Positions 7,930 through 45,024 of a DNA stretch of 64,000 nucleotides are shown piece after piece. A model generated the notes under the pieces. That model saw only the letters and a program-made list of their open reading frames with translations. It was not told where the DNA came from and searched no databases. The stretch's first letter is position 1, and the number at the start of each line of letters is the position of its first letter. The DNA is from Blasia pusilla (lineage: Eukaryota): the NCBI GenBank assembly GCA_050084515.1, contig CM114271.1:16740001-16804000 (forward strand), in the 5' to 3' direction. The translations under genes and the position numbers were made by a program.

Positions 7930-8845
7930 ACCTATTTGGGGGAGGAGATATTTGGCTCTTCCCAAAAGTATCGGAAGTTGGGGTATGACTCTCACTAGCC
8001 AATTTTCTCATGTTTAGACTAGGGAGCGCTCTTTCTTTTAGGGTTTGGTAGGAGCTAGAGTGATGGAACTCTTTGGAGGGATGAGTATGGGATAAGGTGT
8101 AGTGTTGTAAGCCAACATACATGTGTGTCAATATTTGGATAAGGTGTAGTGTTGCAAGCCAACATACAGAGCGGCAATCTTGGGTAGTAACTAATGATTG
8201 AAGCGACAAACTTAGGTAGTAACCATTCTATCATGTTCAATGGTTAGCACATGTGTATAGAGACAATGGGGGCATTGGTTGGGAGGGCAAGACAAAGATC
8301 CGATATATAGGCACCTATGGATTTCTTGAGACATCGTTTAAGCAAAGTGTATGAAGTGGGCAAGAACAACACGCGTTCTCTTCTCTAATATAGAGTATGA
8401 TGTTAGAGATCAAGGTGGAGTTTCTGTAGTAGAGATGACTAGGGTTGTTAAGTAGTAACCACATATAGAGTTTCTCTTTCTTTTGTGAGTGAGATCACAA
8501 TGGAGGCTTAATTGGGAGTGTATGGTAGATCTTGATTTGATCGGAAGAAATAGATGTTGGAAACGGCAGTTCCAACAAGGGCATAGGAGTTATTATGCCC
8601 TCGACATGAGGGATTTGGGTACTTTGAAGGGTCTTGGTATATAAGTAGATTTGGCCATACACAAATCTTCCATCAACCCTACAAGTATTTAAACTGTATT
8701 TTGACATGGAGGGAGCCTTAATTCAAAGTGGGACTCATGATTTATGGGAGGCAAGACTAGTGAAGGTATCCCATGCAGAATATGCATGTACCACAATCAT
8801 GATCGTGAAGAAGGATATGTATGGAAATTGGACACATAGGTGCCC
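7930..8845 (+). mobile_element. Highly degraded remnant of the methyltransferase-carrying Gypsy family (repeat fragment, MTase-RT linker, RT N-terminus)
   Basis: ~7960-8030 resembles the reverse complement of repeat B (ttggctcttccc...ttttctcatgtt). 8706-8840 translates MEGALIQSGTHDLWEARLVKVSHAEYACTTIMIVKKDMYGNW, matching MERALIQSRSQDLLEAGLVELSHGEYASATVMPAKKDMYGNW at 19668. Confidence 0.7.
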
Positions 8846-9390: not shown

Positions 9391-9456
9391 TGGTATTAGA
9401 GCATTAGGTTTTCCAGTATTTTGGCGATCTAGTGTGTTTGCACAAAGTCTTGAGAG

Positions 9457-13430: not shown

Positions 13431-13497
13431 CATCTGAAGGGTCTTGGCATAGGTCCAAGACAATAGTCCACATGAGAATGGATATTGAGGGGGGGGG

Positions 13498-13950
13498 TGT
13501 TGGATTCTCAACATCCACTTCTCTGAGCAGCATTAATCTGATCGGTCCCCTTGTATAAGGAAAAGCCTAGATTGATGGTTCCGACTTGGACGTCGAAGGA
13601 GTCATAGTAATATGATGTAGGTGGTTTCAAGAGTAGCGTTACTAGGATTATCCAACCCTATATTGCATCAGGGTGCAGGGCACCCTGATGCGTTGCGGGG
13701 GTCCAAGGGCGCAGCCCTCGGAAAAAAAATTCTATCAATAGAAATGAAGAAAAATAGGTAAAAAAACCCTAGTTTCTCGAGTAGTGAAATAGTCGGGAGC
13801 CGCAACTGTAATGCATTCTCGTATGTCGAGTTATCTCCATGTTGGGGTTCCATCGAAGCTTTTCTGTGAGCACACGGACGGACTAGGCCACTTTGTATCT
13901 CTAAGTTTTGTAAAGATTTTTGTGATTTCGTCACTTTCTGTTTTCTCACA
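13498..13950 (+). repeat. Copia 3' LTR (453 bp)
   Basis: Direct repeat of 8974-9390 with an extra ~35-bp GC-rich segment near 13690-13725. Confidence 0.95.
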
Positions 13951-14184: not shown

Positions 14185-15950
14185 TTATAACATACTAAAA
14201 ATACGAACAAACCTTAATGCCTTCGAGTTAATCCTATTGAAGCACTCAACACTTGATTGCCTATCAAAGAGGTTATTTGTCCCTAGCCAAGGGTAATAAT
14301 TCTTCACTCTCTTTATTGAGTGCCTAGCAGTCAACACATAGTCCAACTTCCCATCCTTCTTATTCAAATAGAATGGGCACTCCATAACGTAACTTATTAG
14401 TTTGAATATATCCCCTTTCCAATAGTTCTCTCGACCGCTTCTTTAAACTATGCAAGTTTAACTTCATTAAGTGTATATGAAGCTTTTGAAGGCATTTGAG
14501 AATCTAGTACGACCTCAATCTTATGATTGATTTCCCTCTTTGTTGGTAATTAAGTCATTAAAAAGCTCCTTTATCAAGACGTCCCTAAATTCCTCAACTA
14601 GTGTCCAAAGTATTTTGGGGAGTATCACCAAATGTGACTCTTAATCTTGCGTGTTATGTTTGTAGTCCCTAATTCAAGCATCAAGCAGAGAAAATCATCT
14701 TCAAACTCAACTTGGTTTGTCCTTGTAATCACATTTAACTGCAACTCCTCTTTCATATGAATTTCTAGCTCGAACCAAAATCATATGAAACAACTTTCTT
14801 CTCACTAAGATGCTCAACCTTACTGTGAGCCTTAACGGTCTTTTTCTTAGCTCACCTCATACCCATTCACGAAGGTGTTCCCTAAGACCCCTACTATCCC
14901 ATTCATGTTGCAAATGGTGAAATTCTCCTTCAACTTGCACGCCTTGTAGCCAAACATTAACCCTTAGGATAGATCTGATACTATGTAGGATTTACCATTG
15001 GAAAAGCCCACCTAAAGTAGGTTAGTCAACCTTGGTGGTCGACACATCCCACTTCTTCACTAACTACGGGCTCAAGAAGAATTACAAAGCATATGTATCA
15101 ATAAGAAACATAACATTCCTATTAGAGATCTAGGCTATTAGGTACGCATGATTGGATGTCCTCTTGTTAACTTGATGGAATACCTCTACGTCACCTTCCA
15201 ATAAGTGCTTAGTAGCAAACGTAATCATGCTCCAATTACTAATCGTAGGCTTTGGACTTACCTAAGCTTTGTGCTCGGATGTACTCGCTATAATTATAAC
15301 AATCACTCTAGCTCCAATAAACTTCGGGTACAAAGCTTTGCTCTGCCTATTGGCACTCTAGAATAAATAGATCCCCAATCTAAAGTTTGAACTCCTCCGA
15401 ACTCAAAGAGGACACGATGCCTGCATGTTCCTTGTGATGGGATGTCCACCATTGGATTGTATGATCCTTAAAAAATGTTCTTGCAATAATGACATTCTCC
15501 TTGAGCTTGTCCTCCACTATAGCCAATTATGCTTCAAATTACATCTTGATTTTGGTGAGAAACTCCTTAACTCTACATTACCACCCCATTCCTAAAAATG
15601 GAATGGTCAAATTTTTCTTAGAAAGGTTCTTGCTAAATTTTAGATATTCGATCCATCTCCAACTTAGAAATTTTCTTACTCTATTGGATTATTTGTTATA
15701 ATATGATCTTCATTAGGTTCATCATTTGAACATAAATTATTGGGTCATTTAATTTTGGAGCGGATCTTCCAATTGAACGCTTCCAATCTAGGACATTCTA
15801 ATCCCTAGATCTCGTTGGTGTGTCATATTATTCATCAGCACCCAAATACGCATATATTAAACATATTTTTTGGATCAACCAGCCTTGTGTTTCTTGAGTT
15901 TGAGTCTTGGGTCGCCCTTCAAGTTCAATAGACCTAAATAGGGTTAGATA
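14185..15950 (-). mobile_element. Old, heavily decayed Gypsy-like remnant(s)
   Basis: 14185-14385 translates RVKNYYPWLGTNNLFDRQSSVECFNRI, resembling Gypsy RT (KNxYPLPRIDDLFD...FSxID). The rest is poorly resolved and the boundaries are approximate. Confidence 0.45.
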
Positions 15951-15953
15951 CCA

Positions 15954-16091
15954 TGTCGTGCACATACATATCGCTACACAACATACATCGCTCGTCACAT
16001 CTACACCACACAACACCGATCTTCCCCACACACGGGTCCATCCACACATGTACAAAAATAAACTCATACATATACATGGAGATCACACAAC
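15954..16091 (-). repeat. Terminal repeat A (138 bp), copy 1
   Basis: Direct repeat of 16568-16705 with about 5 substitutions. Confidence 0.95.
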
Positions 16092-16565
16092 AAAAATAAA
16101 GAGTAGTAAAAATGGCACACCCGGCCTAAAACTCCACTCCTCAATCTACATCGGCATATCGAGCCTCGTCCACCCTGTGCTATCAAGGAATCCGGACGCT
16201 AGCACCCTAGTCCTAGCTCACACACATACAAGGGAGGTGCTCCAACAGCCCAACATGAGAAAGATGGCTTAGGAAAGCCATCTTCCTCTCTTATATAGGT
16301 TGGGAAGAGCCAAAAGGCTCTTCCCCTAAAAATAGCCCTTCCCTTGGTAACTGCGCAGTTACAGTTCAAAAAGTGTTTGAGTCAACAAGTCACCCGGCTG
16401 TAAAAGACCTCAACATGAAAGTTGTCAGAAACGACATTCCTGACACAATGGACCTATCCTCAACCTCATCTGACACTCTGGGACAAAGTTACACTCAAGA
16501 TAGTCCGCTGGCTCCTACGCCCTATCCACGATAGATCTAGGCCTATCGGCTACCCAGATGTGACA
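16092..16565 (-). repeat. Terminal repeat B (474 bp), 3' copy
   Basis: Direct repeat of 24751-25222. Confidence 0.95.
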
Positions 16566-16567
16566 GT

Positions 16568-16705
16568 TGTCGTGCGCATACATATCGCTACACAACATAC
16601 ATTGCTTGTCACATCTACACCACACAACACCGATCTTCCCCACACACGGGTCGATCCACACATGTACAAAAATCAACTCATACATATACATGGAGATCAC
16701 ACAAC
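16568..16705 (-). repeat. Internal repeat A' (138 bp), preceded by a PPT-like taggggggcg
   Basis: Copy of 15954-16091; separated from B by 2 nt (gt at 16566-16567); cgcccccctag at 16706-16716 is the minus-strand purine tract. Confidence 0.93.
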
Positions 16706-16781
16706 CGCCCCCCTAGCTGGCAGTTGGATCCCCCTAACTCCAAATAGAAAATATCACATCTCTCTGACATGACCTACTACC

Positions 16782-16925
16782 CTATACATATCTCGGACAC
16801 ATCCATCGTCCCGTGGGAACCACATCAAGAGGGGGGTTCAGACATGACATATGCCACCCTCGAGAACAACCATCACATACCAACATGGTGGCTGCACCCC
16901 TCGCAGATCCGCACAACATACACCT
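16782..16925 (-). other. PHD zinc finger at the C-terminus of the integrase
   Basis: CMLC...MLVCDGCSRGWHMSCLNPPLDVVPTGRWMCP: C4HC3 PHD pattern; the last Cys appears mutated to Tyr. Confidence 0.9.
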
Positions 16926-17127
16926 CAAGCCTGCAGGTACCACTGCCAAGCTCGGATCCACCATCCCATTTACATTTGGAAGATGACATGGCGCACAATT
17001 GCGCACATGATCCTTCCAAACCATACCATCCCGTCCCTCCAACATGAGGACTCCGATCGATAATACCTCGCACGCACAGGATCGATGCGCGCAGGTGTGC
17101 GATGACATCTAGCGTCGTGGGTGCCGC

Positions 17128-18303
17128 CTACTGTAAATACACGTAATCTCCAGGATGAAACCTCCTAATCCCTGGACGAAAACCTCCTCCACGAATGGTC
17201 GCGTACCTCAATGTATCTCTATGCTGGGCAATAGCTAAGTTCTCAAAGGCCATAGGCATAACTCTACAAAAAAATTTTGCCCTCTGAGAACATGCTTGCA
17301 CCCACACAATTAGATCATCAAGATCTAACACCTCCGCCATGTCACGTCGAATCGCTGTAGGTAAATCTGGCTCTCTCCCAAAGAGCAAAAAGTATGGTGA
17401 AAATGACGCCAAGGATGCCTGCCGACTAAAGCGATAACCCATAGCCAACCATGGCAACTGTAGGTCCCACTCCCTCAATTGTCCCCGCTGCAAGCCATAC
17501 TTGCGCAATCCTCTCTTCACTGTCTGTACCACTCTCTCTGCCAACCCATCCGCCTCAGGATGATCCCTGGACGTGGTGTGGTGATCTATTAGCGCCTAAT
17601 CACACAAGGCCTGAAACTCTCCCCTGAACTCGGTACCCTGGTCAGTCAACACCTCCGCCGGTGCACCAAAGTGACTAAGCACACGATCTAGAAACGCATA
17701 AGCTGTTCCCTGGCTCGCCTTGTCTGGTAGTGCCACCAACTCTATCCACTTGGAGAAATGCTCCACCATGACCAACACGTACCTATGATGATGCCCTGTC
17801 AATGGCAAAGGTCCCGCAAAGTCTAAACTCCACCGATAACCTAAACCCATAATCGGCAAAGGATATAACTGCGGAGTGGGAGCATTGAAGGATGCTTGCA
17901 CTTTGTCATATACCATACATCTGGCCACAAACTTCTGTACCCCAGTATGCATGCCGCGCCACCAATACTGAACCTAGAGTAAGCTATAAGTACGCTTTAC
18001 TCCGAAATTTCCCAACTCCTCATGGGCATGTCGCACTACACGTGCTCGCTGGGAAGGATGAGGTACCACTAGTATCCTACCATCTCCCCATACCCGTAAA
18101 ATGTGAGTCCCCTCCCACCTGAACCTCTTGGCTCTCTGTAGGATCCGATCCCGCTCCCTAGCACTCACTGTACTCGCAATGACGCCAGTGCGCAAGAACT
18201 CCACAACCTCCATGTCGTCATGGATATCACGACCACTTGTCGCCTCCTCACTAACCTCCGGATCCAAAGACTCATCATCCAATCCCACCACTGGAGTCAT
18301 CAC
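17128..18303 (-). pseudogene. Gypsy integrase (H2C2 + DDE core), with in-frame stops
   Basis: RHAHEELG, RWSLDFAGPLP, VMVEHFSKWIE, LTDQGTEF, AERVVQTVKRGL. Confidence 0.92.
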
Positions 18304-19668
18304 CTATGGCTGACCTGCCATAGTCAACCAACAAAGATAGGCATATGCATGCCAACCGGGCACCATCTCCTCATCACTCTCTCCGTGCCATCGAGCTCCC
18401 GTGACGTCTCTCTGACTCGGACATGGGTTACGACTCAACCCATCCGCATCCTGGTTCAACCAACCTGGCCTATGAACCACCTCAAACTCATACTCCTGTA
18501 GTAATAGAGCCCACCTGGCAAGCTTTCCTGTAAGCTTTTCGGACTCCATCAACCACCTCAACGACTGATGATCAGTGATAAGTGTGAAAGGGTTTCCGAA
18601 TAAATAGCACCTAAAATGTGCCACGGCCCATACGGCAGCCAAGCACTCTCCCTCGTAGGAGCTGTACTTTGCCTCTGTAATGTTGTTCGATCGGCTCGCG
18701 TAAGCCACAACGAACTCCCTCTCCTCGTCATCCCTTTGAGTAAGCACTGCTCCTAGACCCAACATGCTCCAATCCGTATGTAACTGGAATGGGCGACCCC
18801 TAACCGGTCTCTGTAAAATGGGTGAGGACGTCAACCTGTCCTTGAGCTCTTGAAATGCTCGCTCTTGATCATCTCTCCACAACCACACTTGATCAAGTCT
18901 CGTCAACAAGGTCAAAGACTTTGCGATCGCACTAAAATCCTTGACATACCGTCGATAGAACTTTGCCAGTCCAAGAAATGCCCGGACTCGACTCACATCT
19001 GTAGGGAGTGGAATCTGCGCAATAGCCTCTACCTTCGTCTGCTGAACGCCTAACCCACTCGGGTATATGGTGTGTCCCAAGTACTCAATCTGCTCTTGAA
19101 AGAATCTGCACTTGCCTGGATGTAACTTCAGTCCATGTAACTACAATTGCCGAAACACCTCCTCCAAGTGTCGCTCATGCTCCTCAACCGTGGAACTGAA
19201 GATAAGAATATCATCTATGTAACATCGTACAAAATCCAAGCCAGCCAGAATCCTATCCATCACTCTCTGAAACTCCGCAGGCGCGTTCTTCAATCCAAAT
19301 GGTAAGAACCGCCACTGATACAAGCAATCTCTCCCAAACCGATCTATCCCCCAGAATGTTGTCTTCTCCTTGTCCTCCAACCTGATAGGAAGTTGATGAT
19401 AGCCAGCACGGAGATCTAAAGTACAAAAGATCTTTGCATGCCCTACCGCATCAAAGATCTCCTCAGGAGTAGGCATGGCATACCGATCTGACCTCGTCTG
19501 TCGGTTGATAGGACGGTAATCTCCACACATCCACCTATCCCTCCAATTGCCATACATATCCTTCTTCGCCGGCATGACTGTGGCAGATGCATACTCCCCA
19601 TGTGATAACTCCACAAGTCCTGCCTCCAACAAGTCCTGACTCCTGCTCTGAATCAAGGCTCGCTCCAT
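18304..19668 (-). pseudogene. Gypsy reverse transcriptase and RNase H
   Basis: CGDYRPIN, LDLRAGYHQ, LPFGLKNAPAEFQ, YIDDILIFS; RNase H LHTDWS, YSSYEGECLA, TDHQSL, DADGLSR. Confidence 0.95.
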
Positions 19669-20164
19669 ATCACAATACCTGTAGGGTCAACGAAAGATTG
19701 GCGTATCACTAGCCAACTCAATCCGTATCCCGGGACCCTTTAGCATACCCAAGTCTCTCATACTGAAGGAAAAACAATTGACATGCCCTCTCAGAAACCT
19801 ATGAACTCGCCGTCGCTCTCCTCCTATCATCTTGAGACCTATCACAGGCTCCCAAGTCTCCATCGTGACCTCACTCGGAGAGGACGCAACCTCCGGCTTT
19901 GGTTGCTATGTAGCAATCCTAGCCACCTCCGCAACAGCCACTCCACTTTGACCTCCTACACCATGCTCCACATCCGAAAAATGAACATGTGCTACTCTAG
20001 CCGCCTTCGCACTCTCTGATCGAACGACGTCCCAGGAAGTCCATGGGTGCCTATCTCTCCTCGTCTCGCCCCCAGCCAATGCTTGTACAGACCTTGTAGG
20101 CAATGGTCCAGCTCGTGGACGAGACGGCATGGATGACACTCGCATCCGTCTTTGCTCAGCCATA

Positions 20165-21120
20165 CCTAGGCTGACTATCCATGTGAGACAGTTGAGGTCC
20201 ATCGCCTGCCCCAACACCTGTCTCCGTGATGCCTCAGTCATCCCTGGCACCGCCGTAGTACTGGTAGTGAACCCCATGGCGCGCTCGCGCTCATCTGCTG
20301 TAGGCTCCTCCGATAATCCGGTCACCTCATCCCAAATCATGCCTGGCCCTCCCTGACAAAAGGCATGGGATGCTGGGAAGCTCACCAACGTAGGTAAGGC
20401 TGCCCTCAACTCCCCCACCCTATTGGCCGTGGCCAAGGGTGGTCTATCATCGCGTGTCACCACCTGAGATCGACGCCCTGAGTCCAAAATAGCATCCACT
20501 GTGAGATGTAGTGCTCTCTGGACTCCACTGTAGGCTCGACTCAGTACCTCTGATGGCATCAGGTTCGTCCACCATAGTCGTGGATGATGGGCACGTGACC
20601 CAACTCTCGCAGCATCTAATAACACAGGAGGTCCCAACCAAGACCTCACCTGATGTACACTCGTCATCACACGTGCATGAGTATCTCCCAACAACGGCAC
20701 GTTCTCCAAAATGTACGCTGGAGAACATATCTGACTCTGTTGCAAGTGTCGTACTACTCGCGCAAACATCTCCCAAAACATCCCGACCTCGGATCCCGCA
20801 ATCCAAATCCTCGGCCAGCTGATGAATGACCCTGACATGGCCATCCAGCAATCACCAAATGAATGGTGCCAACTCTATCCAGATCCCGCGCCCCCACCAA
20901 AGATATGTCGGCGGGTAGCGTATGCTGGTATCCCCGTACTGCACATACCGACAACAACTCATGATACCTCTGGACCAATCTCGCCACTTGACGTAATGAT
21001 ACTCGCCGCGCGGTCTCATCTCTCTCCACGTAAAGGTACTGATGCACCCATATGCCCGCCTGCAATATGGCAGCCAATCCGGTGCTAATCCCTCCGAAGA
21101 GAACTAACACCCTAACACCC
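20165..21120 (-). pseudogene. C5 cytosine DNA methyltransferase domain (DNMT3-like) within pol; single -1 frameshift at ~20783
   Basis: Motif I VLVLFGGISTG, II YVERD, III DI, IV AGWPCQGHS, VI LENV, VIII RAHHPRLWWTN, IX ERERAMGF, X RRQVLGQAM, all in canonical order across ORFs 20754-21446 and 19906-20844. Confidence 0.92.
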
Positions 21121-21499
21121 TCCTCTGGGCACTGCCACACAACAAGTGTGGTATCTAGTGGGGTCATCGTCTCCACTCCAAGACCCCGATCGCCACGTGA
21201 CTCTCGCTGCTCTGGGATAAAAACATGACTCCACGCCTGCCTCACGAGATCGTCGGCACTCCTCTGTAGCTCTCGAGTCGTACCCCACAATGGTGAAGAG
21301 GCCTCACCAACATGGGAAGAGACACCCGCCATTGCCTGTCTCTCCGTGGGACTATCCGCTACTGGGACATCCTCCGCATGTGCGTTCCCCTCCAACAACT
21401 CTCCTGTCCAGATAACACTACCTCTGAAAGCCGCCAATGTGGCCATAGACTCGCCTCGTGATCAACCACCTCGTCCCGCAAACTACACGGGTAACTGAC

Positions 21500-21862
21500 T
21501 CATCCGGCCGTCACCTGACCGCCATCCTCCCAGAAGTCAAGGATGAATCCTAGGGGATATAACACTGTACTCCCCACCAACACATTGTATGACTCAGCTG
21601 GTGTCGTAATCGCACGTGTGCGCACCATAGCACTATCCGTCGCATGCTCTGGCTGGACTCTGACAACAATCTCTTGTCGAGTCATATACTGAGTGGGTGA
21701 TACGCCCCCAATAGAGGTCTGTATCTGGAAGGGACAAGGCTCAATGTTGGCCTTCCGTAACCCCAACGCTAAACACGCCGCCTTCCCTAACATCAAGGGT
21801 TGCGCTCCCGAATCAAGTAGGACGCGATGCGGGTGGTATACCGTCCCCGTCGGACTAACCAA
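21500..21862 (-). pseudogene. Retropepsin-type aspartic protease
   Basis: RVLLDSGAQ catalytic motif and downstream YNVLVG. Confidence 0.85.
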
Positions 21863-22499
21863 GCGAAATACTCCGGCTCGATTATCGGTAACACTACTCC
21901 AAGTGTCACCATCGCCGCTCTATGGCGGTCGAGTGGCATATCTACCAACTTCACTGCCGCCGCATGCCATGACTCTGTGGGGAACGTCCCAAGCACCGGC
22001 TCTGAGGGCAAGTCCACCACCTCCTCAACTACCTCTGAACAAGAAGCAGTCATCTCTCCACGCTCACACAACGTGGCGGCCAACCAGAACACCTCATCTG
22101 GTCCAACTCCCAACGTCGCCAACTCTAAGGCGGAAAATAGCGGAGTCTGACTCACTCTAGTGGCCACCTCCAACACTATAGTCGACACCGACTCACTCGA
22201 GCCGGCATAGGAGTTGTCACTCCAACTCCTCGTGACGTCGGCGTAGGTGCTCGAATCAGAGGCACCGTTGGTCGCCGAGGCACCATCGATGGTGTGTGTA
22301 GTGCCTCCGACAATGTGAACGACTGTGGAACCCTGGCCTGCCGCCCATCGGTCCCCTCTGGTGGGTCAATCTCAACTCCACCTCTCGATGGCTCGGTGCC
22401 TCTCGCAGCTTCCCGAGTCACCACTGGAGCTGCCTCAACCTGGGCTGCACTACACATGAATCCCATACTGGAGAGATCCTCACCTGGGTCAGGGTAAGA

Positions 22500-23946
22500 G
22501 GTAGAGACTGGAGTCACACTAGTTGCTCGCACTCCGTGCCTTCCTAAGCCGCATCATCGTCATGGCGGCAATCCTCTGCTCAAGCTTCCGATCGATCGTG
22601 AGAGAAGCGCCACTCTACGGTGCTCTGCTCCATCTCCTCGGCTGGTGGTGGTCCTCTACCACCACGTCTAGGAAGAACTCCCGACCTCCCCGGGACGGCC
22701 GCCCCAAGCCCTCGGCCTACCTGCGGACGTGCCCCTCGTCGAAGGTCAAAACATCTATCCCTAGTGTGACCATATCTCGTGGCAATGGTCATATGGTGCC
22801 GTGGTGGGGCCATCCTCTCGTGGCTCTGAGCAATCGGAGGCGCTGGTGGTCCTCTCCCATGTTGTGGGCGATCTCTCGCCTATGAGCCCCTCCACACGTC
22901 CAACAAGACCACATCGGTCCCTGCTGGGCAACATATGTAGGTGCGGGTCGTTGCCTCATAGGCTCACGGTACCCGCCCTGCTCTCTAGGCACACTGGCCC
23001 GCTCCTGTGGTACTGGTGCTTGCTGTGGCACCTGTGGGGTCACCGCCGCTCATGGACCTGTCAACTCTCGAGAAAATCCAACAGTCACTACCTGCTCCTC
23101 ACTCATGTTGAGCTCAATACGCTCAGAAAACTCAAAGACCACCTTCAATGTGGGCTTCGCTGTGTGAATCAGCACCGCATCTCAGACTCTCCTCCGTAGT
23201 TCTCGATCCAGAACCCCGTACCAATACTGGACTGATTGCGCCTTAGTCACTCCAAACGTAGCAATGATCAGCCTCCTCATGCGTGTGAATGCCTCTCTCA
23301 GACTCTCACCCGATCGTCGCTAAAAATCCTGTAGACTCTTCAGCTTGTCGGTGCGTACGCCCTGGTAGCTCTTCCCCAACTTTCGGAAGAACTCCACTGT
23401 GGGGCTGAAGTTGGGTGGCCCTATACCGCCAGAGGTCTCTGCCACATCGCCTGTCTCACTGCCCTCCTCTCCATCTAGTCTCTGGGCTGATGGTGTGGGT
23501 CTCCCTCCTCTCACAATCCCATTATATGCCTCACGACCATTAGTGGACACATACCCTGGAGCCCAATACATCCTCCAGGCATCGATCTCTACTGAATATA
23601 GTGATCGAAACTCCATGTAGTCATCCATCGAAGGACCCTCCAAGTGCTGGAACAACCCCTTCCATGCCATGAAAGGGTTGAACCGTGTCGGGGTCCGTAT
23701 CTCCTGGAAGTCGCACCATGTGTCGAACTCCTGGATGAAATCATCTAAGTCGATGGTACCCACTGCACCCGAGAAACGACGCATGCCCCAGTGGCCCATG
23801 TCGTCCATCTCCGGCCAAGTACTATTGTCTCTGTCGGTGATCTCGTCACCAGACCCAGTGTCCAATGATGACGATCCAGTCACGGATGGATGTCGAGGGA
23901 GCTCCTCACTGGTAAACCCTCGATATCTCACTCCACTCCGTGTCAC
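22500..23946 (-). pseudogene. gag region with zinc knuckle remnant
   Basis: RFSGAVGTIDLDDFIQEFDTW, KLKSLQDF; CWTCGGAH knuckle at ~22880-22910; located upstream of the protease. Confidence 0.75.
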
Positions 23947-24736
23947 ACCACTACCACTGCTCGCACTACCCTGTTCTTTCGAACCCTGGAAGAACGCCGT
24001 GATGACAAACCCTGTCTCACCCGATCAAGCACTCAGACTCATCGAGAGTCTCCCACACGCCTCACTAGCTCACCTATGCTAATGTCAATCCCGTGATGAC
24101 ATACCCGGCCTCACGCACGCTCAACACTCGGGCTCACCATGAGCCTCCCAACTGACTCACCTAACCTAGCGACACTCTCTCGGGTCATACACGCGACTCC
24201 TACTCGGAAACCGCCGTATATCCACCAACATGCTATACATGAAAAGAATCTACACTCGTCACCATCACTGCACCCATCTAGCACCAGCTACTACCCGATA
24301 CCCGGCACTCTCAATCACACACGACAAGTGCGGGAAAAGGGACTCGAATGGGTAACTTGATCACGCCCATCCGCGCCCAGCCCGTCCAGCCCGTCCGCGC
24401 CCGTCCCTTGCCCGTGACCTAACCCTAGACCGGCCGCGACCTAGCTAGCCGTCTTTACTTAACAGCCCCTCGGCGGCTGCAAGACCCAAACTTTCCTTTC
24501 TTCTCTCTCTCGACACCCTCACTTCCGTACACCCGACGCCCCACCACACGCTACACTCGGCTGCTGTCCCCCATCAATCCGCACCAGCAAAATCTGAGAA
24601 AAAAGGACAACGCTTCCGCCCACGGCCTTCCGAACAGAAAAATGACACAAAATGTCACATACACGTCTCCAGGGGCTCCCGACCAAGGCAACTCGCTTGC
24701 CTACCTGCAAACAACGAATTCCCACCGGCCCCCTGA

Positions 24737-24750
24737 CATCTTTCTCATGT
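24737..24750 (-). promoter_or_regulatory. Candidate self-priming primer-binding site
   Basis: catctttctcatgt (24737-24750) abuts repeat B' and is the exact reverse complement of 24912-24925; there is no TGG-type tRNA PBS here. Confidence 0.75.
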
Positions 24751-25222
24751 AAAAATAAAGAGTAGTAAAAACGGCACACCCGGTCTAAAACTCCACTCCT
24801 CAATCTACATCGGCATATCGAGCCTCGTCCACCCTGTGCTATCAAGGAATCCGGACGCTAGCACCCTAGTCCTAGCTCACACACATACAAGGGAGGTGCT
24901 CCAACAGCCCAACATGAGAAAGATGGCTTAGGAAAGCCATCTTCCTCTCTTATATAGGTTGGGAAGAGCCAAAAGGCTCTTCCCCTAAAAATAGCCCTTT
25001 CCTTGGTAACTGGCAAGACAGTTACAGGGGGTGACTGGTCAACAAGTCACTCGGCTGTAAAAGACCTCAACATGAAAGTCGTCAGAAACGACATTCCTGA
25101 CACAATGGACCTATCCTCAACCTCATCCGACACTCTGGGACAAAGTTACACTCAAGATAGTCCGCTGGCTCCTACGCCCTATCCACGATAGATCTCGGCC
25201 TATCGGCTACCCAGATGTGACA
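24751..25222 (-). repeat. Terminal repeat B' (472 bp), 5' copy, with TATA box (tatataa, 24956-24950)
   Basis: Direct repeat of 16092-16565; the element starts tgtcacatctgg at 25222. Confidence 0.95.
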
Positions 25223-27619
25223 ACCAACCTAACCCCTCATGCACAACATAGGAAAGTTATTCAAAACTTGGGACATAATTCTTTGATAGTCTAGGGCTAT
25301 AAAACATCACTCGTACAACTTGTAGTCCCAATTGCCCAATGGATCTCAAATGAGTCTCTAAGAGAAACTCCATATATGAGTAACAGATCAAGGTCCATGT
25401 TAAGGTCCAAAACTATACTACCCAGACTTTGCTTGATATCAAACCCCTAATGCCAACCTCTCAATTCATCCCATACCCTTAGTTCAACCCCCATGCAAAC
25501 CCTACAATATAGTTCCGGAGGAATTTAGCCCCTCCTTCATCCAAAGAAATTGTGTAAGGGCTTCTTATGGCCTTTAACCCAAACTATCATTCCAAAAATT
25601 TTGGGACTTTTTCTAGTGAATTTTTCTAAATCTTTAGTGCCTTGGAATTGACTCCTTACAAGATTTCTAACACCATCTTATCTATGAACAAAAATATATT
25701 GGATGTAATTGTTATCATCTCAAACGTGATGAACCAAAAACTTTCAATTCGGTTCCAAGCTAGGTTGGAGTCTTCTTAGAGTCCAACTCTTGTGGGATGT
25801 GAGATCTTCTCAAGTTTCACCATGTCTTTGGTTATGCTCTTCTTGTTCACAACATCTATCATCATTTGAGATGCTCATTAAGGCTTAGGTCTTGCTTATG
25901 CCAATCATGTCTTGTTGGTGAAACTTTGATGTGTTACCATCATAGTGTTAGCCCACAAGATTTTTATGTTTTGCATTGGCGCATTGGTTGTGAGCGCCAT
26001 GATACTTCCTCCTCCTCCCTCCCCCCCAAGAGGATTAATTAATCCTTTATGACATTTAAGATGAATCAATATATATATATCTTCAACTTCATGTTCCTTG
26101 GAGCTTGGATTGTTATGCTCTCATTCCTTCAATACTTGAGGCACAACAAAACTTGCCCCCTCTCCCTCCCTTCCCCTTCCCCCAAATAATAATGATTCTT
26201 TCTTTCTAGTTGCAAAAATGAAAATTTAGAAACAATTTTAAAGAATTCTTCATTTTCCCATTCACCATTGATACTTTTAAGGGAGGATAGCTTCTTGATT
26301 TCCAAACACCTCTTTGACTAGTGCACGACAATGGATAGCAAGAAATTATTTGGTAGCACGAGCGACAAGAATAAATTTTTTGGAATATTTGGAAACCAAA
26401 ATAATTTCTCTCGCGCATGAAATATGTTGTACATTGGTTTATGGTAATTAACACATTCCTCCCAAATGAGTTCTTCACTTTCCTCATTCCTACTATTTAG
26501 AATGCTAGTTAAATAGCATATGAAAATCACATAAATTTAATTCCCTCTAAAATTTTGTAATTTAATGAAAACAAATATTTGATATAATTTTAAGAAAAGT
26601 ATAACTTGAATAATTTTGACGCTTGGAAAAAAGGACATATGATGTTCATTGAGCTTTCACATTCCTTTCTACTAATAATAGTTCAATTTTTTCACTCATT
26701 ATACATACTTCCACTTGATATTAGCTAATAAAGAATGTACACGGTTGTACAGATTCCATAAGTCCATTATTTCAAATAAAATAAGAATAATCCCTATCAT
26801 TTTCTCATAAATATTTTTTCTAATGTAAGATTTTCCTCCTAAAATTTTTTTCTTCCTATGATCCCTTCATTTTTTTTACTATGTGTTTTATGCATATAAA
26901 GAACCATTAAACTAATAATTATGCAAGAGGATTATGGAAAATATTGTAGGTAATCACTTTCCAAAATTTAAGAGATGCCATAAAGTTTGGCTGTGGTTAA
27001 AGATATTCACCTAAAAATTAATAAAACTATACGATGAATAAATAAAGTGCTAAGAAGTTATCTTTTAAGAATAGGAGGTATCTCTAAGAATAATCATCAA
27101 TTAGGTGATATTTTTAACTTGAGATATGATATCAATTTAAGTAAATAAATTTAAATTTTAAAATTACCTCCAACCATAATATCTTTCATAATTTGAGGAT
27201 GCTTGTAATCCTCATTTATTAGGCAAGAGAATCTATCATTTGAAATCATCTAAATTATTTGGAGAATGATTCCTCCATAAGTTCATTTAGTATAAATACT
27301 TAAGTTATATAGATCCTTCATACCATTTCTTAAGAGTTGTATTAGAATTTCCACCTTTGGATTACGATGAAGTGTACAATGATTCTAATTTTGGGATAAT
27401 AATTTTAGTGTCTTGTTTCAACATTAACTTCCACTATGTTTACAAGTTTCTTTTTAACGAATTATCTTATTTCCACCATTCTCATCATTAGAAGAAAAGT
27501 ATGGGTTTTTTGTGATTTACCAATGAAATACTTTTGAACATAATAAATCAAATTATGACTCTATTATTTTCTTTTCTTTTCTGATAGCTCATTCAAATGA
27601 GATATAAAAAAATTGACTA

Positions 27620-32027: not shown

Positions 32028-35000
32028 ATCGCTACACAACATACATCGCTGACACCGAACACACACACACAAACACGCACGATCCCAAGCTAACTCATGA
32101 CACCCAAACACAGTGACGAGAAGTACCAAAATATTTCCAATAAAATAAGGTTAAATCTCTCTCACAACACCATAGCTCTCACATATATGCACTCTCACAT
32201 ATCTCTCTCAATGTCAAACCAAACCCACTCTCCTAATGAGAGGCTCGAGTTACACTCACAAGGCAAGGTACCATAGCTCCGCTGCCTCATGCGAAGAGAT
32301 TCAACATAGAGAGAATGAGCTCTCAAACTCTCTCTCCTTGAGGTATACCCCTCCCTTCTCCCAAGCTCTCTCCATGGTAACCTAGGCTCCCAAGTCATCT
32401 CCTTGGCTCTCGACCTGATGTAGGAGGTCAAGGGTCACTTCCCAAAATAGAAATCGACCACAGAGTCAAAATGGCAATTACCCAAAATAGTAAGTTCTTC
32501 AATATGGCTCCAAATGGGCCGAAACGAAGGGGAAACCTGTTATCTCACATTTCTCAGGGCCTCAGTAGGTCATCCTCGACCTCTTGAGTGTGTCCTCCAC
32601 TACTCGCAAAGGCGCTCTACTAGATCTTACCGATCTATCCTAAAAGATGTGACAATTATCGTGTGCATACATATTGCTATACAGCATACTTCGCTCTCAT
32701 CAAACACGCACACAAACACGCACGATCCCATGCTAAATCATGGCATCAAAACATAGAGGTGAGAAGTACCAAAATGTCTCCAATCGCCCCCCTATCTAGT
32801 GGTTAGGTCCCTCTAACTCCATATAATTATCTATCCTTACCTACTATGACATACATCTCTAGGACGCTAAGAGCAAAAAGTTTGGGTGCTTATGTGGCCC
32901 CATCGTTAGTCGTCTTCTTGTCATCCATATTATAGACATAAGTCAAAATCTAGAACTACCTACTCTATGTACATCTGGGATTCATCCATCGTCCATGAGG
33001 AACCCTAGTGAGAGGTGGCGTCAAACATGCCATATGCCATCCTCTCAAACACCCATCATAGACTAGCATAGTGGTTGCACCACGGGCGGAACAACACAAT
33101 AGACATCATAAGCCTATAAGAACTACTGCTAAACTTGGATCAACTTTACCATCAATGTTCGGAAGGTGACATGGCATATATTTATGCACATGTCCTTCCA
33201 AACCATACCATCGCGTTCCTCCAATAAGAAAATACCATATGGTAAAATCTCACACACTCTTAAGATAGTGCGCCCTGCAGTCACATCCAACGTCGTGGGT
33301 GCCGTTTGCTGTAAGTAGACATAGTCTCCCTGATGAAACCTCTGGATAGTAGGTCGATAACCATCTCCCCAAATAGTTGCATACCTCAACGTATCTCGAT
33401 GCTGCGCAATCGCCAAGTTCTCAAACGCCATGGAGATCAATCTCTGAAGCAACTGAGCCCTCTAAGAACATACTTGCAACCATACATCAGGGTCATCAAG
33501 GTTCAACATCTCACCAACGTCTCGACAAATGGCCACAGGTAAATCTGGCTCTTGGCCAAAAAGTAGCAAGTACGGTGAGAAAGACGCTAAGGATGCCTTC
33601 CTGCTGAATCTTAATCCCATGGCCAACCACGGGAACAGGAGGTCCCAATCTCCTATGTGACCTCTCTGCAAGCCATACTTTCCAAATCCTCTCTTCATCG
33701 TCTGAATAACCTTCACCGCTAGTCCATCCCTCTCAGGATGATCTCGCGAAGTGGTGCGATGGTCGATCAGCGCCTCATCACACAAGGCCTGAAACTCCGC
33801 AAGGCTCTGTACCTTGGCCTATCAACACCTCAACTGGTACCCCATAATGACTTGACACTCAATCTAGGAAGGAATACGATACTCCCTCACGCTTTGTCAA
33901 GCAATGCAACCAACTCTATCCATTTTGAGAAGTGCTCAACCATCACCAACACATAACGACTATGGCGCTCTATCAAAGATAACGGTCCGGAAAAATCCAA
34001 ACTCCATCTATAACCTAAACTCATGATCGGAAGTGGATGCAATTGTAGATTTAGAGCATTGAATGATGCCCGGACCTGATCACAAACCATGCACACTCAC
34101 AACAAACTGTTGAATGTCAGTTTGCATCTTTTGCCCCCAATACTATATCTGGAACAAACTATATGTTTGCTTCACTCCAAAATGACCCAACTCCTCGTGG
34201 GCGTGACGCACCAAACGCGCTCTCTGTGAAGGATGAGGCACTACACGCACTCTACCATCCTCCCAAACTCGCAACACATATGTCCCCTCCCACCGGAACC
34301 GTCTGGCTCATTGTAGGATCTGATCCCGCTCTCTAGCACCCATTGTGCTCGCGATGCTGCCAGTACACAGATACTCCAAGACAACTTTATTGTCAAGAAT
34401 GTCTCAGCCACCTGTCGTCTCCTCATCGGCCTTTGGATCCAAGGACTCTCCATTTGACTTCGCCATCGAAGTCTTAGCAATCTAGCTGTCCATAGCCAAC
34501 CAACCTAAATAGGCTAACACGTGCCATCCTGGCACCAACTCCTCATCACTCTCACCATGCCAACAAGCTCTAGTCACATCTCGTTGACTCGAGCATGGAT
34601 TACGACTCAAACCATCTGCATCCTGGTTGAGCGTCCCAGGTCTATCCACCACTTGGAAGTCATACTCTTGCAACAAAAGAGCCCATCTCGCAAGCTTCCC
34701 TATAAGCTTGTCGGACTCCATCAACCACTTAAGTGGCTGATGATCAATAATGATGGTAAAGGGGTTGCCAAATAGATAAAACCTGAAATGTGCCAGCCCA
34801 CACTGTAGCCAAGCACTCACCCTCATATGAGCTATACTTTGCCTCTACAGCATTGTTTGAGCGACTAGTGTAAGCCACCACAAACTCTCTACCATCATCG
34901 TCATGTTGGGTGAGCACAACTCCAAGCCCCAACATGCTCTAATCAATATGCAACTGGAAAGGCCGCCCCGTGATCGGTCTCCTCAATATGGGCGCGGACG

Positions 35001-41000: not shown

Positions 41001-41500
41001 CGGCGGCTAGTCTAGGGTTTGAACAATTTTATCCTAAAAATGGCCTAGCAATGGCAGTTTTGCAAGATCAACCATAACTTTTTGCTCACAGCTCAGAATT
41101 GCGCACCATCTTTCCATAACGTGCCCAACTTCAAGATCTACGACAACCTCTAAATTTTTTTTCATTCGACTTTTCCACAAAAATTGACGGGAACTGTCAC
41201 GTAGTCGTTCAAATCTGCACTCCTATGACAAAATCGGCATGGCTTCCGCGCTAATTTCTTCCACAAAAAATTTCAGACCTGTAAAATCACAAACCAGCAA
41301 GCTACTTGGTGCTCCCGAGCACTAGAATGGGAAAATCCACCCCCAAACTTCATCTCTAAAGAAATTTGGGCAGCGCTTCCGTGCGCCACTCTTCCACACA
41401 AAATCAACCAATTTTTTGTATGGAAGAGTGGCTACCTGTCCTCCACTACTTGCGAAGGCGCTCTAGTAGATCTCACAGATCTATCCTAAAAGACGTGACA
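32028..41500 (-). mobile_element. Second, more decayed MTase+PHD Gypsy element (copy 2, different subfamily)
   Basis: Same domain order: gag knuckle CWACGGAHHHRDC (~39140), protease RVLLDSRAQ (~38020), MTase, RT YYIDD (~35385), RH, integrase WSLDFSGP, PHD (~32965-33108). Repeats A 32028-32141, B 32142-32654, A' 32657-32784, short B' 41437-41500. Confidence 0.9.
36330..37320 (-). pseudogene. C5 DNA methyltransferase domain of copy 2 (disrupted)
   Basis: VLNLFGGISTS, AGWPC*G (37021-37050), ENV, GSRACRPPLWWTN, ERERVMGLP, RRHILVHAMD. Confidence 0.88.
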
Positions 41501-44728: not shown

Positions 44729-44846
<118 letters not shown>

Positions 44847-44951
44847 AGAGCTCATTCTCTCTTTGTTGAACCTCTTGGCATGAGGGGACGGAGCTATGAT
44901 CCTCCTTGCCTTGTGTGTGTAATCCGAGCCTCTCACTAGGAGAGTGGGTTT

Positions 44952-44955
<4 letters not shown>

Positions 44956-45022
<67 letters not shown>
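44956..45022. repeat. (GA)n microsatellite, ~66 bp
   Basis: Uninterrupted GA dinucleotide run. Confidence 0.98.

Positions 45023-45024
<2 letters not shown>

What the first reader, a model, noticed from the sequence alone, without database searches (positions are those of the whole stretch)
20165..21120. Gypsy retrotransposon encoding a DNMT3-like cytosine methyltransferase inside its pol polyprotein
Seen: between the protease (DSG, ~21810) and RT (starting ~19668) lies a complete set of C5-MTase motifs in order (FGGIS, E, DI, GWPCQG, ENV, RxxxxRLWWTN, ERERAMGF, RRQVLG). The domain is broken only by a 1-nt frameshift at ~20783. Known: motifs VIII-X resemble DNMT3-type de novo enzymes (AHRARYFWGN, EMERVFGF, RQRLLG), and MTase-carrying retrotransposons have been reported in dinoflagellates and the charophyte Klebsormidium (de Mendoza et al. 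2018). Inference: this family occurs in a land plant with the MTase as a protease-processed, probably particle-packaged domain. It could methylate the cDNA before integration or the target locus. I cannot confirm from sequence alone whether this lineage is already described.
Basis: partly seen in the sequence, partly recalled or inferred. Interest (0 to 1): 0.92.

Follow-up and report, generated by a model that had tools for sequence, protein, structure and literature searches.

The report
Liverwort retrotransposon carrying DNMT3-like methyltransferase
A dead copy of a jumping gene in a liverwort genome carries its own DNA-methylating enzyme; this kind of element was so far described from a green alga, and its relatives in the model liverwort Marchantia could make the enzyme's purpose testable.

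Summary
Window 15954-25222 (minus strand) is a 9.3-kb Gypsy-type retroelement. All C5-methyltransferase motifs lie in canonical order between protease and RT, and the catalytic core is broken only by a one-base frame shift at 20781-20783.

A profile of the family matches DNMT3A/B/C (E 1e-23), and a modelled relative has the DNMT3 fold.

This copy is dead: six further in-frame stops lie between the RT N-terminal linker and the end of integrase, and there are more frame changes. A diverged second copy (about 32061-41501) and a fragment also carry the domain.

The host is a liverwort, judged from a flanking PEX11 gene. Relatives occur in Marchantia, Calypogeia, Sphagnum, Closterium, Klebsormidium nitens and hundreds of unnamed contigs. 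I therefore file it as a land-plant member of the Gypsy-DNMT3 kind published for K. nitens (de Mendoza 2018), not a new kind.

The session added three points:
- A positionally conserved in-frame UAG with a leaky context (UAG CAA CCA) separates Gag-PR-MTase from RT-RH-IN-PHD.
- The integrase carries a C-terminal PHD finger.
- The termini are split direct repeats (A1...B1-A2-B2) with a 4-bp target duplication.

What the enzyme does remains inference.

The parts
25223..25226 (-). Target-site duplication, 5' side (TGGT read on the minus strand)
   Evidence: Sequence and flanks printed. The same 4 bases follow the 3' end at 15953-15950.
24751..25222 (-). Repeat A1 (5' terminal long repeat, 472 nt, begins TGTCAC)
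   Evidence: 96.0% identical over 475 columns (4 gaps) to 16092-16565. Ungapped blocks are 98-99% identical.
22200..24024 (-). gag region, with several frame changes and 3 in-frame stops
   Evidence: tblastn with the Marchantia gag-PR-MTase protein P0005 gives pieces in different frames. Pfam finds no family.
21500..21919 (-). Aspartic protease piece (DSG at about 21814-21806)
   Evidence: ORF. It is 62% identical to the matching piece of element 2. Pfam finds no family on this copy. Relatives carry Asp_protease_2 / gag-asp_proteas at the same place.
20781..21461 (-). MTase N-terminal linker and motifs I-IV (frame A). The catalytic Cys is in GWPCQG at 20852-20823.
   Evidence: PF00145 scores 17 bits, E 0.004, below the cut-off.
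20781..20783 (-). Place where the reading frame shifts by one base inside the MTase core
   Evidence: Frame A ends RDPRSG at 20781 and frame B starts MFWEMF at 20781. Intact relatives run straight through.
19909..20781 (-). MTase motifs VI-X and C-terminal tail of ORF1 (frame B)
   Evidence: 926 clusters match at E<=1e-3.
19900..19908 (-). Conserved in-frame stop with its context, TAG CAA CCA (matches UAG CAR YYA)
   Evidence: The same codon position holds a stop in 18 of 18 same-frame loci of a sister subfamily, in L047 and L048, in element 2 and in the fragment. The motif definition is from a passage of PMC3542737.
19141..19899 (-). ORF2 N-terminal linker and reverse transcriptase. A private stop lies at 19689-19687.
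   Evidence: Pfam RVT_1 E 1.5e-22. Stops.
18304..19140 (-). RNase H
   Evidence: Pfam RT_RNaseH E 1.7e-35
17128..18303 (-). Integrase (zinc-binding H2C2 plus DDE core), in three pieces split by in-frame stops
   Evidence: Pfam rve E 1.7e-13. Integrase_H2C2 is weak, below its cut-off.
16782..17108 (-). C-terminal PHD finger, in another frame than the integrase
   Evidence: Pfam PHD E 3e-11. Best PDB matches are PHF12, CHD4, DPF3, KDM5B and PHF21A.
16568..16705 (-). Repeat B1 (138 nt, ends CACGACA)
   Evidence: 96% identical to 15954-16091. Junctions are printed.
16092..16565 (-). Repeat A2 (3' copy of the long repeat)
15954..16091 (-). Repeat B2 (3' end of the element, ends ...CACGACA)
15950..15953 (-). 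Target-site duplication, 3' side (TGGT)
32061..41501 (-). Element 2, a diverged and heavily decayed copy with the same domain order. The MTase is at 36195-37640 in one frame with 9 in-frame stops. The conserved TAG CAACCA is at 36068-36060. The repeat layout is A1...B1-A2-B2.
8309..8840 (+). Fragment of a third copy (ORF1 tail, TAG at 8453, start of ORF2), riddled with stops

Best explanation
Window 15954-25222 (minus strand) is a dead copy of a streptophyte Gypsy-DNMT3 retroelement sitting in a liverwort genome.

Shown here: layout.
5'-A1 - [gag(CCHC)-PR-DNMT3-like MTase] - UAG - [RT-RNaseH-integrase-PHD] - B1-A2-B2-3'. The termini are TG...CA and there is a 4-bp target duplication.

Shown here: the enzyme.
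The MTase is a non-rearranged DNMT3-type catalytic domain. Its catalytic residues are kept across more than 100 diverged relatives.

Inferred from conservation of the stop and its UAG-CAR-YYA-like context.
The main translation product is Gag-PR-MTase. Occasional read-through of the UAG gives the long form that adds RT, RNase H and integrase-PHD. The MTase would therefore be made at Gag-like abundance and enter the particle through its Gag part.

Inferred, not tested.
After protease cleavage the enzyme methylates the element's own newly made DNA, and possibly DNA next to the insertion. The PHD finger on the integrase reads the histone H3 tail to steer integration. The gain to the element would be to arrive already carrying the host's mark pattern.

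This particular copy can do none of this. Its MTase frame is shifted and its RT-IN frame holds six further stops.
For: Identity of the domain:
- The motifs are in order.
- The family profile hits DNMT3A at E 1.3e-23 over residues 10-286 of 295, DNMT3C at 7e-22, DNMT3B at 2e-21, DRM at only 2.8e-10 and M.HhaI at 6e-7.
- An AlphaFold model of relative P0014 has pLDDT 79 and pTM 0.80. Every listed Foldseek PDB hit is DNMT3A/B/C, with E about 1e-17 and TM by target 0.41-0.83 (0.76-0.83 for the catalytic-domain-only chains).
- Catalytic Cys 124/124, ENV Glu 127/127, motif VIII second Arg 126/127 and Asn 127/127.

Part of the element, not an accident:
- The same order is seen in element 2 and the fragment.
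- Among 206 related proteins, 50 show PR-MT and/or MT-RT and 81 show RH-MT and/or MT-IN.
- Uninterrupted relative L048 has ORF1 with PR + PF00145 (51 bits) and ORF2 with RVT_1, RNase H, rve and PHD.

Same kind as the K. nitens element:
- GAQ93235.1 has CCHC-PR-MTase.
- It lies on the window's side of a branch with SH-aLRT 96 that separates the two architectures.
[quoted passage not shown] They are seen here in element 1, element 2, L046 and L061.

Leaky stop:
- 18 of 18 same-frame loci have a stop at the same codon, against at most 4 of 18 at any other codon.
- The contexts are TAG CAACCA (elements 1 and 2), TAG CAGTTA (L047, L048) and TAG/TAA CAACCC (18 loci).
- 21 gag-PR-MT and 18 PR-MT proteins show no domain after the MTase, and 29 of the 40 type-A proteins examined end within 180 residues of it.

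Constraint: dN/dS is 0.54 for the MTase against 0.35 for RT and RNase H, in mostly decayed copies.

Transcription: RNA reads of the same species label lie on the RT-IN part, almost all with the first mate on +.
Against: - This copy is broken, so nothing about it shows activity.
- The two halves of the window's domain fail Pfam's cut-off on their own.
- At the first Arg position of motif VIII the window copy has His, shared by only 2 of 127 rows.
- dN/dS of the MTase (0.54) is higher than that of RT or RNase H (0.35). It was measured in a sister subfamily from unnamed contigs, where 77 of 80 copies carry in-frame stops.
- The K. nitens domain gave no detectable methylation in yeast. The authors call this inconclusive because human DNMT3B also failed (passage read).
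- Read-through is inferred from conservation alone.
- The 18 sister loci have CAACCC rather than the full CARYYA motif.
- Some subfamilies (L053, L057, L061, L079; protein P0058) have no stop between MTase and RT.
- RNA reads at 95% likeness are almost absent over gag, PR and the MTase N-half, and most are 95-99% alike, so they come from relatives.
- No PBS or PPT of the usual kind was recognised.
- The tree is the quick search, because the careful one did not finish. It has no outgroup, since no host DNMT3, DRM or bacterial sequences could be added.
Confidence: 0.72

Rival explanations
1. The MTase is a passenger. It was captured from a host gene and is decaying without use to the element.
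For: The window copy and 77 of 80 metagenome copies carry stops. dN/dS is higher for the MTase than for RT. No activity was found for the K. nitens domain in yeast.
Against: The domain is found in 926 clusters, in two architectures, and in charophytes, liverworts and a moss. Catalytic residues are kept in 124/124 to 127/127 rows. dN/dS is below 1 even though post-insertion decay is included.
Confidence: 0.04
2. The domain is used, but not as a DNA methyltransferase acting on the element's own DNA. It might methylate the RNA genome, act as a chromatin- or DNA-binding module, or methylate host DNA around insertions to make a safe haven.
For: There is no assay of substrate. The 2018 paper raises RNA methylation for its LINE elements and saw no DNA methylation by the K. 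nitens domain. The PHD finger suggests chromatin contact.
Against: The fold and catalytic set are those of DNA-acting DNMT3 enzymes. A purely structural role would not need the Cys, ENV and Arg residues.
Confidence: 0.2
3. The conserved stop is a true terminator. RT-RH-IN-PHD is then made by another route, such as a spliced or subgenomic RNA, reinitiation, or supply in trans by other copies, and not by read-through.
For: There is no direct evidence for read-through. 18 loci have CAACCC, one base off the published consensus. RNA reads are denser over RT-IN than over gag-PR-MTase.
Against: ORF2 is in the same frame as ORF1 in 41 of 58 loci and in both full window copies' best-preserved parts. 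L048 has a single stop between two long same-frame ORFs. The hexamer after the stop is conserved between elements that share only 48% of their MTase residues. The uneven RNA depth fits the 95% likeness filter and the higher conservation of RT-IN.
Confidence: 0.2
4. It is a DIRS/Ngaro-type element, as its split direct repeats suggest, rather than a Gypsy-type one.
For: The A1...B1-A2-B2 layout is seen in 4 elements. That this layout is typical of DIRS-order elements is partly recalled and partly taken from the legend read.
Against: The pol order is PR-RT-RH-IN with a DDE integrase (Pfam rve, Integrase_H2C2) and no tyrosine recombinase. Termini are TG...CA, and a 4-bp target duplication is present in 2 of 3 elements checked.
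Confidence: 0.03

Closest known systems
KnitGypsy-Dnmt3 of Klebsormidium nitens (de Mendoza et al. 2018, PMC5890265; passages read)
   Same: Both have a DNMT3-like, non-rearranged MTase in the coding region of a Gypsy-type element, with a DIRS-like repeat layout. K. nitens protein GAQ93235.1 has CCHC-PR-MTase and falls on the window's side of the MTase tree.
   Different: The host here is a liverwort, and close relatives are in Marchantia, Calypogeia and Sphagnum. The paper's main text names no bryophyte element. The PHD finger is not mentioned in its main text (0 occurrences). I could not see its Fig. 4c or supplements, so the ORF split may already be drawn there. I did not verify that GAQ93235.1 is one of the copies the paper used.
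SymbioDIRS-Dnmt3 and SymbioLINE-Dnmt of Symbiodinium (same paper)
   Same: These are retroelements that captured a C5-MTase. The DIRS ones methylate CG de novo in yeast.
   Different: They belong to other element classes (tyrosine-recombinase DIRS, LINE), another host lineage, and an independent capture according to the paper.
Sister architecture RT-RH-MTase-IN-PHD in unnamed contigs (e.g. P0041, P0064)
   Same: They have a related MTase (35-45% identity), a PHD finger after the integrase, and Gypsy-type RT, RNase H and IN.
   Different: The MTase sits between RNase H and integrase. These form the other side of the branch with SH-aLRT 96. Their hosts are unknown.
Chromoviruses (Gypsy elements with a chromodomain on the integrase) and the 'EpiLTRs' of bioRxiv 10.64898/2026.05.21.726589 (passages read)
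   Same: A chromatin-reader module is fused to the integrase C-terminus. EpiLTRs combine methyltransferases with a reader domain.
   Different: There is no adenine MTase. The preprint lists streptophyte Gypsy-DNMT3 as a separate, earlier-known case.
Type I leaky stop UAG-CAR-YYA of tobamoviruses (Firth & Brierley 2012, PMC3542737, passage read), and the gag-UAG-pol of gammaretroviruses (recalled)
   Same: An in-frame UAG lies between an abundant upstream product and the polymerase. The window's context TAG CAA CCA fits the consensus.
   Different: Here the protease and the MTase lie upstream of the stop. Read-through is not demonstrated.

Membership tests
C5 cytosine DNA methyltransferase (Pfam PF00145) | Motifs I, IV (PC catalytic Cys), VI (ENV), VIII, IX and X in canonical order | tested here: met
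   Coordinates are and the alignment. In motif VIII the first Arg position is His in this copy (2/127 rows share it), while the second Arg is kept.
C5 cytosine DNA methyltransferase (Pfam PF00145) | Score above Pfam's gathering cut-off (22 bits) | tested here: inconclusive
   The window halves, tested separately because of the frame shift, give 17 bits and no hit. Intact relatives give 27.7-45.5 bits in 6 of 8, 51 bits for L048 ORF1 and 58 bits for K. nitens P0165.
C5 cytosine DNA methyltransferase (Pfam PF00145) | Methyltransferase fold | tested here: met
   This was tested on relative P0014, not on the window copy: pLDDT 79.3, pTM 0.80. Foldseek hits to DNMT3A/B/C have E about 1e-17.
DNMT3 subfamily | Non-rearranged motif order (unlike DRM) and closest similarity to DNMT3 catalytic domains | tested here: met
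   Profile scores are DNMT3A 87 bits, DNMT3B 80, DRM 43 and M.HhaI 32. No DNMT1, CMT or DNMT5 chain appears at E<=1e-3.
DNMT3 subfamily | Placement inside DNMT3 in a tree with host DNMT3, DRM, other eukaryotic and bacterial MTases | not tested
DNMT3 subfamily | N-terminal reader domains of host DNMT3 (PWWP, ADD) | tested here: not met
   Pfam finds none upstream of the MTase in the window pieces or in relatives. Gag and PR lie upstream instead.
Ty3/Gypsy LTR retrotransposon (Metaviridae) | pol order PR-RT-RNaseH-IN with DDE integrase | tested here: met
   Pfam RVT_1, RT_RNaseH and rve in that order, with the MTase inserted between PR and RT.
Ty3/Gypsy LTR retrotransposon (Metaviridae) | Two full identical LTRs, one at each end | tested here: not met
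   The layout is A1...B1-A2-B2. The B segment is absent at the 5' end.
Ty3/Gypsy LTR retrotransposon (Metaviridae) | TG...CA termini and a short target-site duplication | tested here: met
   TGTCAC...CACGACA with TGGT on both sides. L046 has CATA. L061 has none.
Ty3/Gypsy LTR retrotransposon (Metaviridae) | tRNA primer-binding site and polypurine tract | tested here: inconclusive
   Reading by eye found no usual PBS. A G-rich stretch lies upstream of B1. No formal search was done.
KnitGypsy-Dnmt3 kind (de Mendoza 2018) | DNMT3-like domain within the coding region of a Gypsy-type element, related to the K. nitens copies | tested here: met
   K. nitens GAQ93235.1 has CCHC-PR-MTase and lies on the same side of the branch with SH-aLRT 96. 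Whether that accession is one of the published copies was not checked.
KnitGypsy-Dnmt3 kind (de Mendoza 2018) | DIRS-like repeat structure (Fig. 4c legend) | tested here: met
   Split direct repeats are seen in 4 elements. The figure itself was not seen.
KnitGypsy-Dnmt3 kind (de Mendoza 2018) | [quoted passage not shown] | tested here: inconclusive
   The median is 0.54 in 377 pairs of 28 mostly decayed copies of a sister subfamily, against 0.35 for RT. It was not measurable for the window's own subfamily.
DIRS / Ngaro order | Tyrosine recombinase instead of DDE integrase | tested here: not met
   Pfam finds rve and Integrase_H2C2 and no recombinase.

The most novel reading that the evidence does not exclude
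One ancient Gypsy lineage has persisted from charophyte algae (Klebsormidium, Closterium) into liverworts and mosses while carrying its own chromatin toolkit. The toolkit is a DNMT3-type writer made at Gag-level abundance from ORF1 through a conserved leaky UAG, and a PHD reader on the integrase. The element would use them to methylate its own new DNA or its landing site. That would mean part of de novo methylation in early land plants is written by transposons rather than by the host.
Probability: 0.25. Interest if true: 0.8.

Novelty: new member of a known kind. Interest (0 to 1): 0.52.

Why it matters
Why a transposon should carry the enzyme that normally silences transposons has been open since 2018. 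The only streptophyte case in print, as far as my searches reach, is an alga with limited genetics.

Annotated proteins of the model Marchantia polymorpha are among the relatives, so the question can be taken to a system with knock-outs, methylomes and transformation.

The conserved stop, if leaky, also changes the picture of dosage: the MTase would be a major product made together with Gag, not a minor part of Pol. The PHD finger adds a reader to the writer.

For genome annotation, many bryophyte 'DNA (cytosine-5)-methyltransferase' gene models are transposon ORF1s, not host genes.

Tried and rejected
- The genome search 'own': no genome is held for this window. Intact copies in the host genome could therefore not be counted.
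- The look-up of sequencing runs: no RNA holder listed.
- Complex prediction, two copies of the MTase domain of P0014: no verdict, score 0.00.
A closer 6-row alignment worked.
- The careful tree search did not finish in the time allowed, so the quick PMSF tree is reported.
- The protein-atlas search only repeated 'C5 methylase, Streptophyta'.
- Literature. Searches found no paper describing a DNMT-carrying retrotransposon in a bryophyte. Passages were read in PMC5890265, PMC12344493, PMC6453930, PMC11982613, bioRxiv 10.1101/2021.02.12.428880 and bioRxiv 10.64898/2026.05.21.726589. Supplements were closed, and those of PMC5890265 and PMC12344493 may list such copies. PMC12344493 speaks of DNMT3 in 'LTR Copia and DIRS' elements 'in streptophytes and dinoflagellates'.
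- Considered and rejected: a host DNMT3 gene hit by a transposon. The domain order is conserved in more than 100 proteins and L048 has continuous ORFs.
- Considered and rejected: bacterial contamination. Relatives are eukaryotic polyproteins, and there is a flanking plant PEX11 gene.
- Considered and rejected: TAG reassigned as a sense codon. Six of the seven stops that split the MTb-to-integrase frame into its pieces are TAG, one of them the conserved ORF1 stop. They fit the excess of transitions between this copy and its relatives. The host gene PEX11 reads normally.
- CpG observed/expected (0.76 in the element, 0.42-0.51 in AT-rich flanks) gave nothing decisive.
Full report
THE OBSERVATION

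On the minus strand, stop-to-stop ORFs give the order gag (23320-24024), protease (21500-21919), two MTase pieces (20754-21461 and 19906-20874), RT (19141-19686), RNase H (18304-19140), integrase in three pieces (17128-18303), and a PHD finger (16782-17108).

Pfam confirms RVT_1 (E 1.5e-22), RT_RNaseH (1.7e-35), rve (1.7e-13) and PHD (3e-11). It gives only 17 bits for PF00145 on the first MTase piece (cut-off 22) and nothing on the second.

The frame changes by one base at 20781-20783. Intact relatives align straight across that point with no residues missing.

IS IT REALLY A C5-MTASE, AND WHICH KIND?

- Each half alone gives only sub-significant hits to DNMT3A/B in the PDB (E 0.06-0.9).
- An exhaustive HMMER search with the C-terminal half finds 926 clusters at E<=1e-3, 498 at <=1e-10 and 72 at <=1e-30.
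- Six of eight relatives tested pass Pfam's PF00145 cut-off.
- A 19-row alignment (A1) used as a profile hits DNMT3A at 1.3e-23 over nearly the whole catalytic domain. It then hits DNMT3C, DNMT3B, DRM (2.8e-10, part only) and M.HhaI (6e-7). All 47 hits belong to these groups plus M.HaeIII.
- An AlphaFold model of relative P0014 (pLDDT 79.3, pTM 0.80) finds only DNMT3A/B/C among the listed Foldseek PDB hits. E is about 1e-17, and TM by target is 0.76-0.83 for the catalytic-domain-only chains and lower for longer chains.
- Across 127 other rows, the catalytic Cys is kept in 124/124, the ENV Glu in 127/127, the second Arg of motif VIII in 126/127 and its Asn in 127/127.
- The window copy has His at the first Arg position of motif VIII. 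Only 2 of 127 rows share it.

I could not add host DNMT3, DRM or bacterial sequences. 'DNMT3-like' therefore rests on profile and fold ranking, not on a rooted tree.

THE COPY IS DEAD, AND IT IS NOT ALONE

- Beyond the frame shift, the RT-IN frame holds stops at 19689-19687, 19143-19141, 18306-18304, 17976-17974, 17598-17596 and 17130-17128.
- The PHD finger, the PR-to-MTase linker and gag are in shifted frames.
- A second copy at about 32061-41501 has the same order. It shares 48% of residues in the MTase and 76-80% in RT and RNase H.
- That copy's MTase is in one frame with 9 in-frame stops, with its motifs still in register.
- A fragment at 8309-8840 (+) covers the MTase tail and the start of RT.
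- DNA contigs of runs with the same coded species label cover the element in thousands of short pieces, as a high-copy repeat would be.
- RNA raw reads of that label lie mainly on 16710-20200: 159 and 142 reads at 95% likeness or more. Nearly all have the first mate on the + strand, which in the usual stranded libraries means RNA of the element's own strand. Most are only 95-99% alike, so they come from relatives.

HOST AND DISTRIBUTION

- A single-exon PEX11 gene at 3689-4459 (-) (Pfam 4.9e-51) is most like proteins of the liverworts Calypogeia fissa (73%), Marchantia paleacea (72%) and Riccia (71%). Ferns give about 60% and mosses 55-57%. The host is therefore a liverwort with no close proteome in the collection.
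- Named relatives of the MTase region are from Marchantia polymorpha (many), Calypogeia fissa and Sphagnum.
- Look-ups named Closterium sp. NIES-68 (GJP34393.1) and Klebsormidium nitens (GAQ93235.1). Both have CCHC, protease, then MTase.
- A metagenome scan found at least 474 related stretches.

TWO ARCHITECTURES

I mapped 206 related proteins with the window's own pieces.
- 50 show PR-MT and/or MT-RT, as in the window.
- 81 show RH-MT and/or MT-IN, usually with a PHD finger after the integrase.
- 73 show the MTase alone, and 2 fit neither pattern.

In a tree of 62 MTase cores (LG+C20 PMSF, quick search in place of an unfinished careful one), the two sets are the two sides of one branch with SH-aLRT 96. 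In the 128-row LG+G4 tree that branch had 89. The window copy, read with X at the break, lies in a clade with support 100 together with Calypogeia, Marchantia and three unnamed proteins. The K. nitens and Closterium proteins lie on the same side.

A CONSERVED STOP AFTER THE MTASE

- Many gag-PR-MT proteins end shortly after the MTase, at about the same alignment position as the window's ORF.
- Locus L048 has two long ORFs in one frame, 1369 and 1047 codons, split by a single stop. ORF1 carries protease and PF00145. ORF2 carries RVT_1, RNase H, integrase and PHD.
- In 18 of 18 loci of a sister subfamily in which MTase and RT are in one frame with a 400-nt gap, a stop sits at the same codon. No other codon has more than 4 of 18.
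- The window's element 1 has TAG CAA CCA there (19908-19900). Element 2 has TAG CAA CCA (36068-36060). The fragment has TAG TAA CCA. L047 and L048 have TAG CAG TTA. The 18 loci have TAG or TAA followed by CAA CCC.
- UAG-CAR-YYA is the published type I read-through signal of tobamoviruses and other plant viruses (passage of PMC3542737).

I therefore read the first stop (19908-19906) as the element's own ORF1 terminator rather than a lesion, and infer read-through. Two caveats apply. It is not demonstrated, and some subfamilies (L053, L057, L061, L079; P0058) have no stop.

TERMINI

- The 472/474-nt repeat (24751-25222 and 16092-16565; 96% identity over 475 columns) is flanked at the 3' end only by two copies of a 138-nt segment (16568-16705 and 15954-16091, 96% identity).
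- The layout is therefore A1...B1-A2-B2.
- The same layout is seen in element 2, L046 and L061.
- A begins TGTCA and B ends CACGACA in all three elements inspected.
- The window element has TGGT on both sides and L046 has CATA. L061 has no duplication.
- The legend of Fig. [quoted passage not shown] This matches.

SELECTION

Among metagenome copies of the sister subfamily, 77 of 80 have in-frame stops in the MTase. Nei-Gojobori dN/dS medians were as follows:
- MTase: 0.54 (28 sequences, 377 pairs)
- RT: 0.35 (44 sequences, 419 pairs)
- RNase H: 0.35 (25 sequences, 126 pairs)

On the 17 loci that have both domains, the medians are 0.54 (MTase) and 0.35 (RT).

Rows were kept only if a single HSP covered the domain, and pairs only if dS was 0.03-1.5. 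Post-insertion decay pushes all three values towards 1. The MTase is constrained, but less so than RT.

THE PHD FINGER

It is most like PHF12, CHD4, DPF3, KDM5B, PHF21A, AIRE and UHRF1 fingers. From memory, several of these read unmethylated H3K4, but this was not tested.

COMPARISON AND NOVELTY

The kind is known. De Mendoza et al. 2018 describe KnitGypsy-Dnmt3 in K. nitens as an independent capture 'in the K. nitens lineage'. They report Ka/Ks < 0.2 and found no methylation in yeast, which they call inconclusive. Their main text does not mention Marchantia, liverworts, mosses, a PHD finger or a chromodomain.

Later papers speak of 'streptophytes'. Seven full-text searches found no description of bryophyte copies. 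Supplements were closed.

I therefore file this as a new member of a known kind. The leaky-stop layout, the PHD finger and the streptophyte-wide spread are additions that may or may not already be in figures and supplements I could not see.

HOW IT MOST LIKELY WORKS

Shown: the anatomy, the DNMT3-type catalytic set, and the conservation of the stop.

Inferred: Gag-PR-MTase is the abundant product and the read-through product supplies RT, RNase H and IN-PHD. The MTase enters particles through Gag, is freed by the protease, and methylates the new DNA. The PHD finger guides integration.

Rivals are listed separately: action on RNA or on host DNA, another route to ORF2, and a passenger domain.

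Noticed in passing
window 3689-4459 (-): An uninterrupted 256-codon PEX11 gene (Pfam E 4.9e-51). Its best named matches are liverwort proteins (71-73%). It was used here only to place the host.
   Followed up: partly
window 8974-13950 (+): A Copia-type element (gag_pre-integrs, rve, SH3_retrovirus, RVT_2 at 10472-12225) lies between direct repeats 8974-9390 and 13498-13950 (89-92% identical). It lies just beside the Gypsy-DNMT3 fragment at 8309-8840 and may have truncated it.
   Followed up: no
window 27842-28676 (-): An RT/RNase H remnant of another Gypsy-type element, 26-33% identical to element 1's RNase H piece. No MTase was seen next to it.
   Followed up: no
window 43474-43716 (+): A lone PHD-finger match (47% identical to element 1's PHD piece) on the plus strand, with no other element domain found beside it. 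Long ORFs at 44578-47146 have no Pfam family.
   Followed up: no
window 17128-19908 (-): Six of the seven stops that split the MTb-to-integrase frame into its pieces are TAG, one of them the conserved ORF1 stop. The commonest differences between this copy and its relatives in the laid runs are T>C and C>T. This looks like transition-biased decay, as expected for methylated repeats.
   Followed up: partly
window 20575-20583 (-), motif VIII: This copy (and P0014) has His where 125 of 127 relatives do not, at the first Arg position of the motif. It may be a second, silent-looking lesion of the enzyme.
   Followed up: partly
L061:11964-11980 and relatives: Downstream of B2 in L061 the flank repeats part of the B end (ACGTCACGAC) and no target duplication is seen. 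There may be a further partial repeat or a rearranged insertion.
   Followed up: no
proteins P0056, P0206: P0056 (RT-RH, related MTase region) carries a G-patch domain after the MTase region. P0206 pairs a weak match to the MTase profile (E 1.6e-17) with a Copia-type RT (PF07727). These are possibly further architectures.
   Followed up: no
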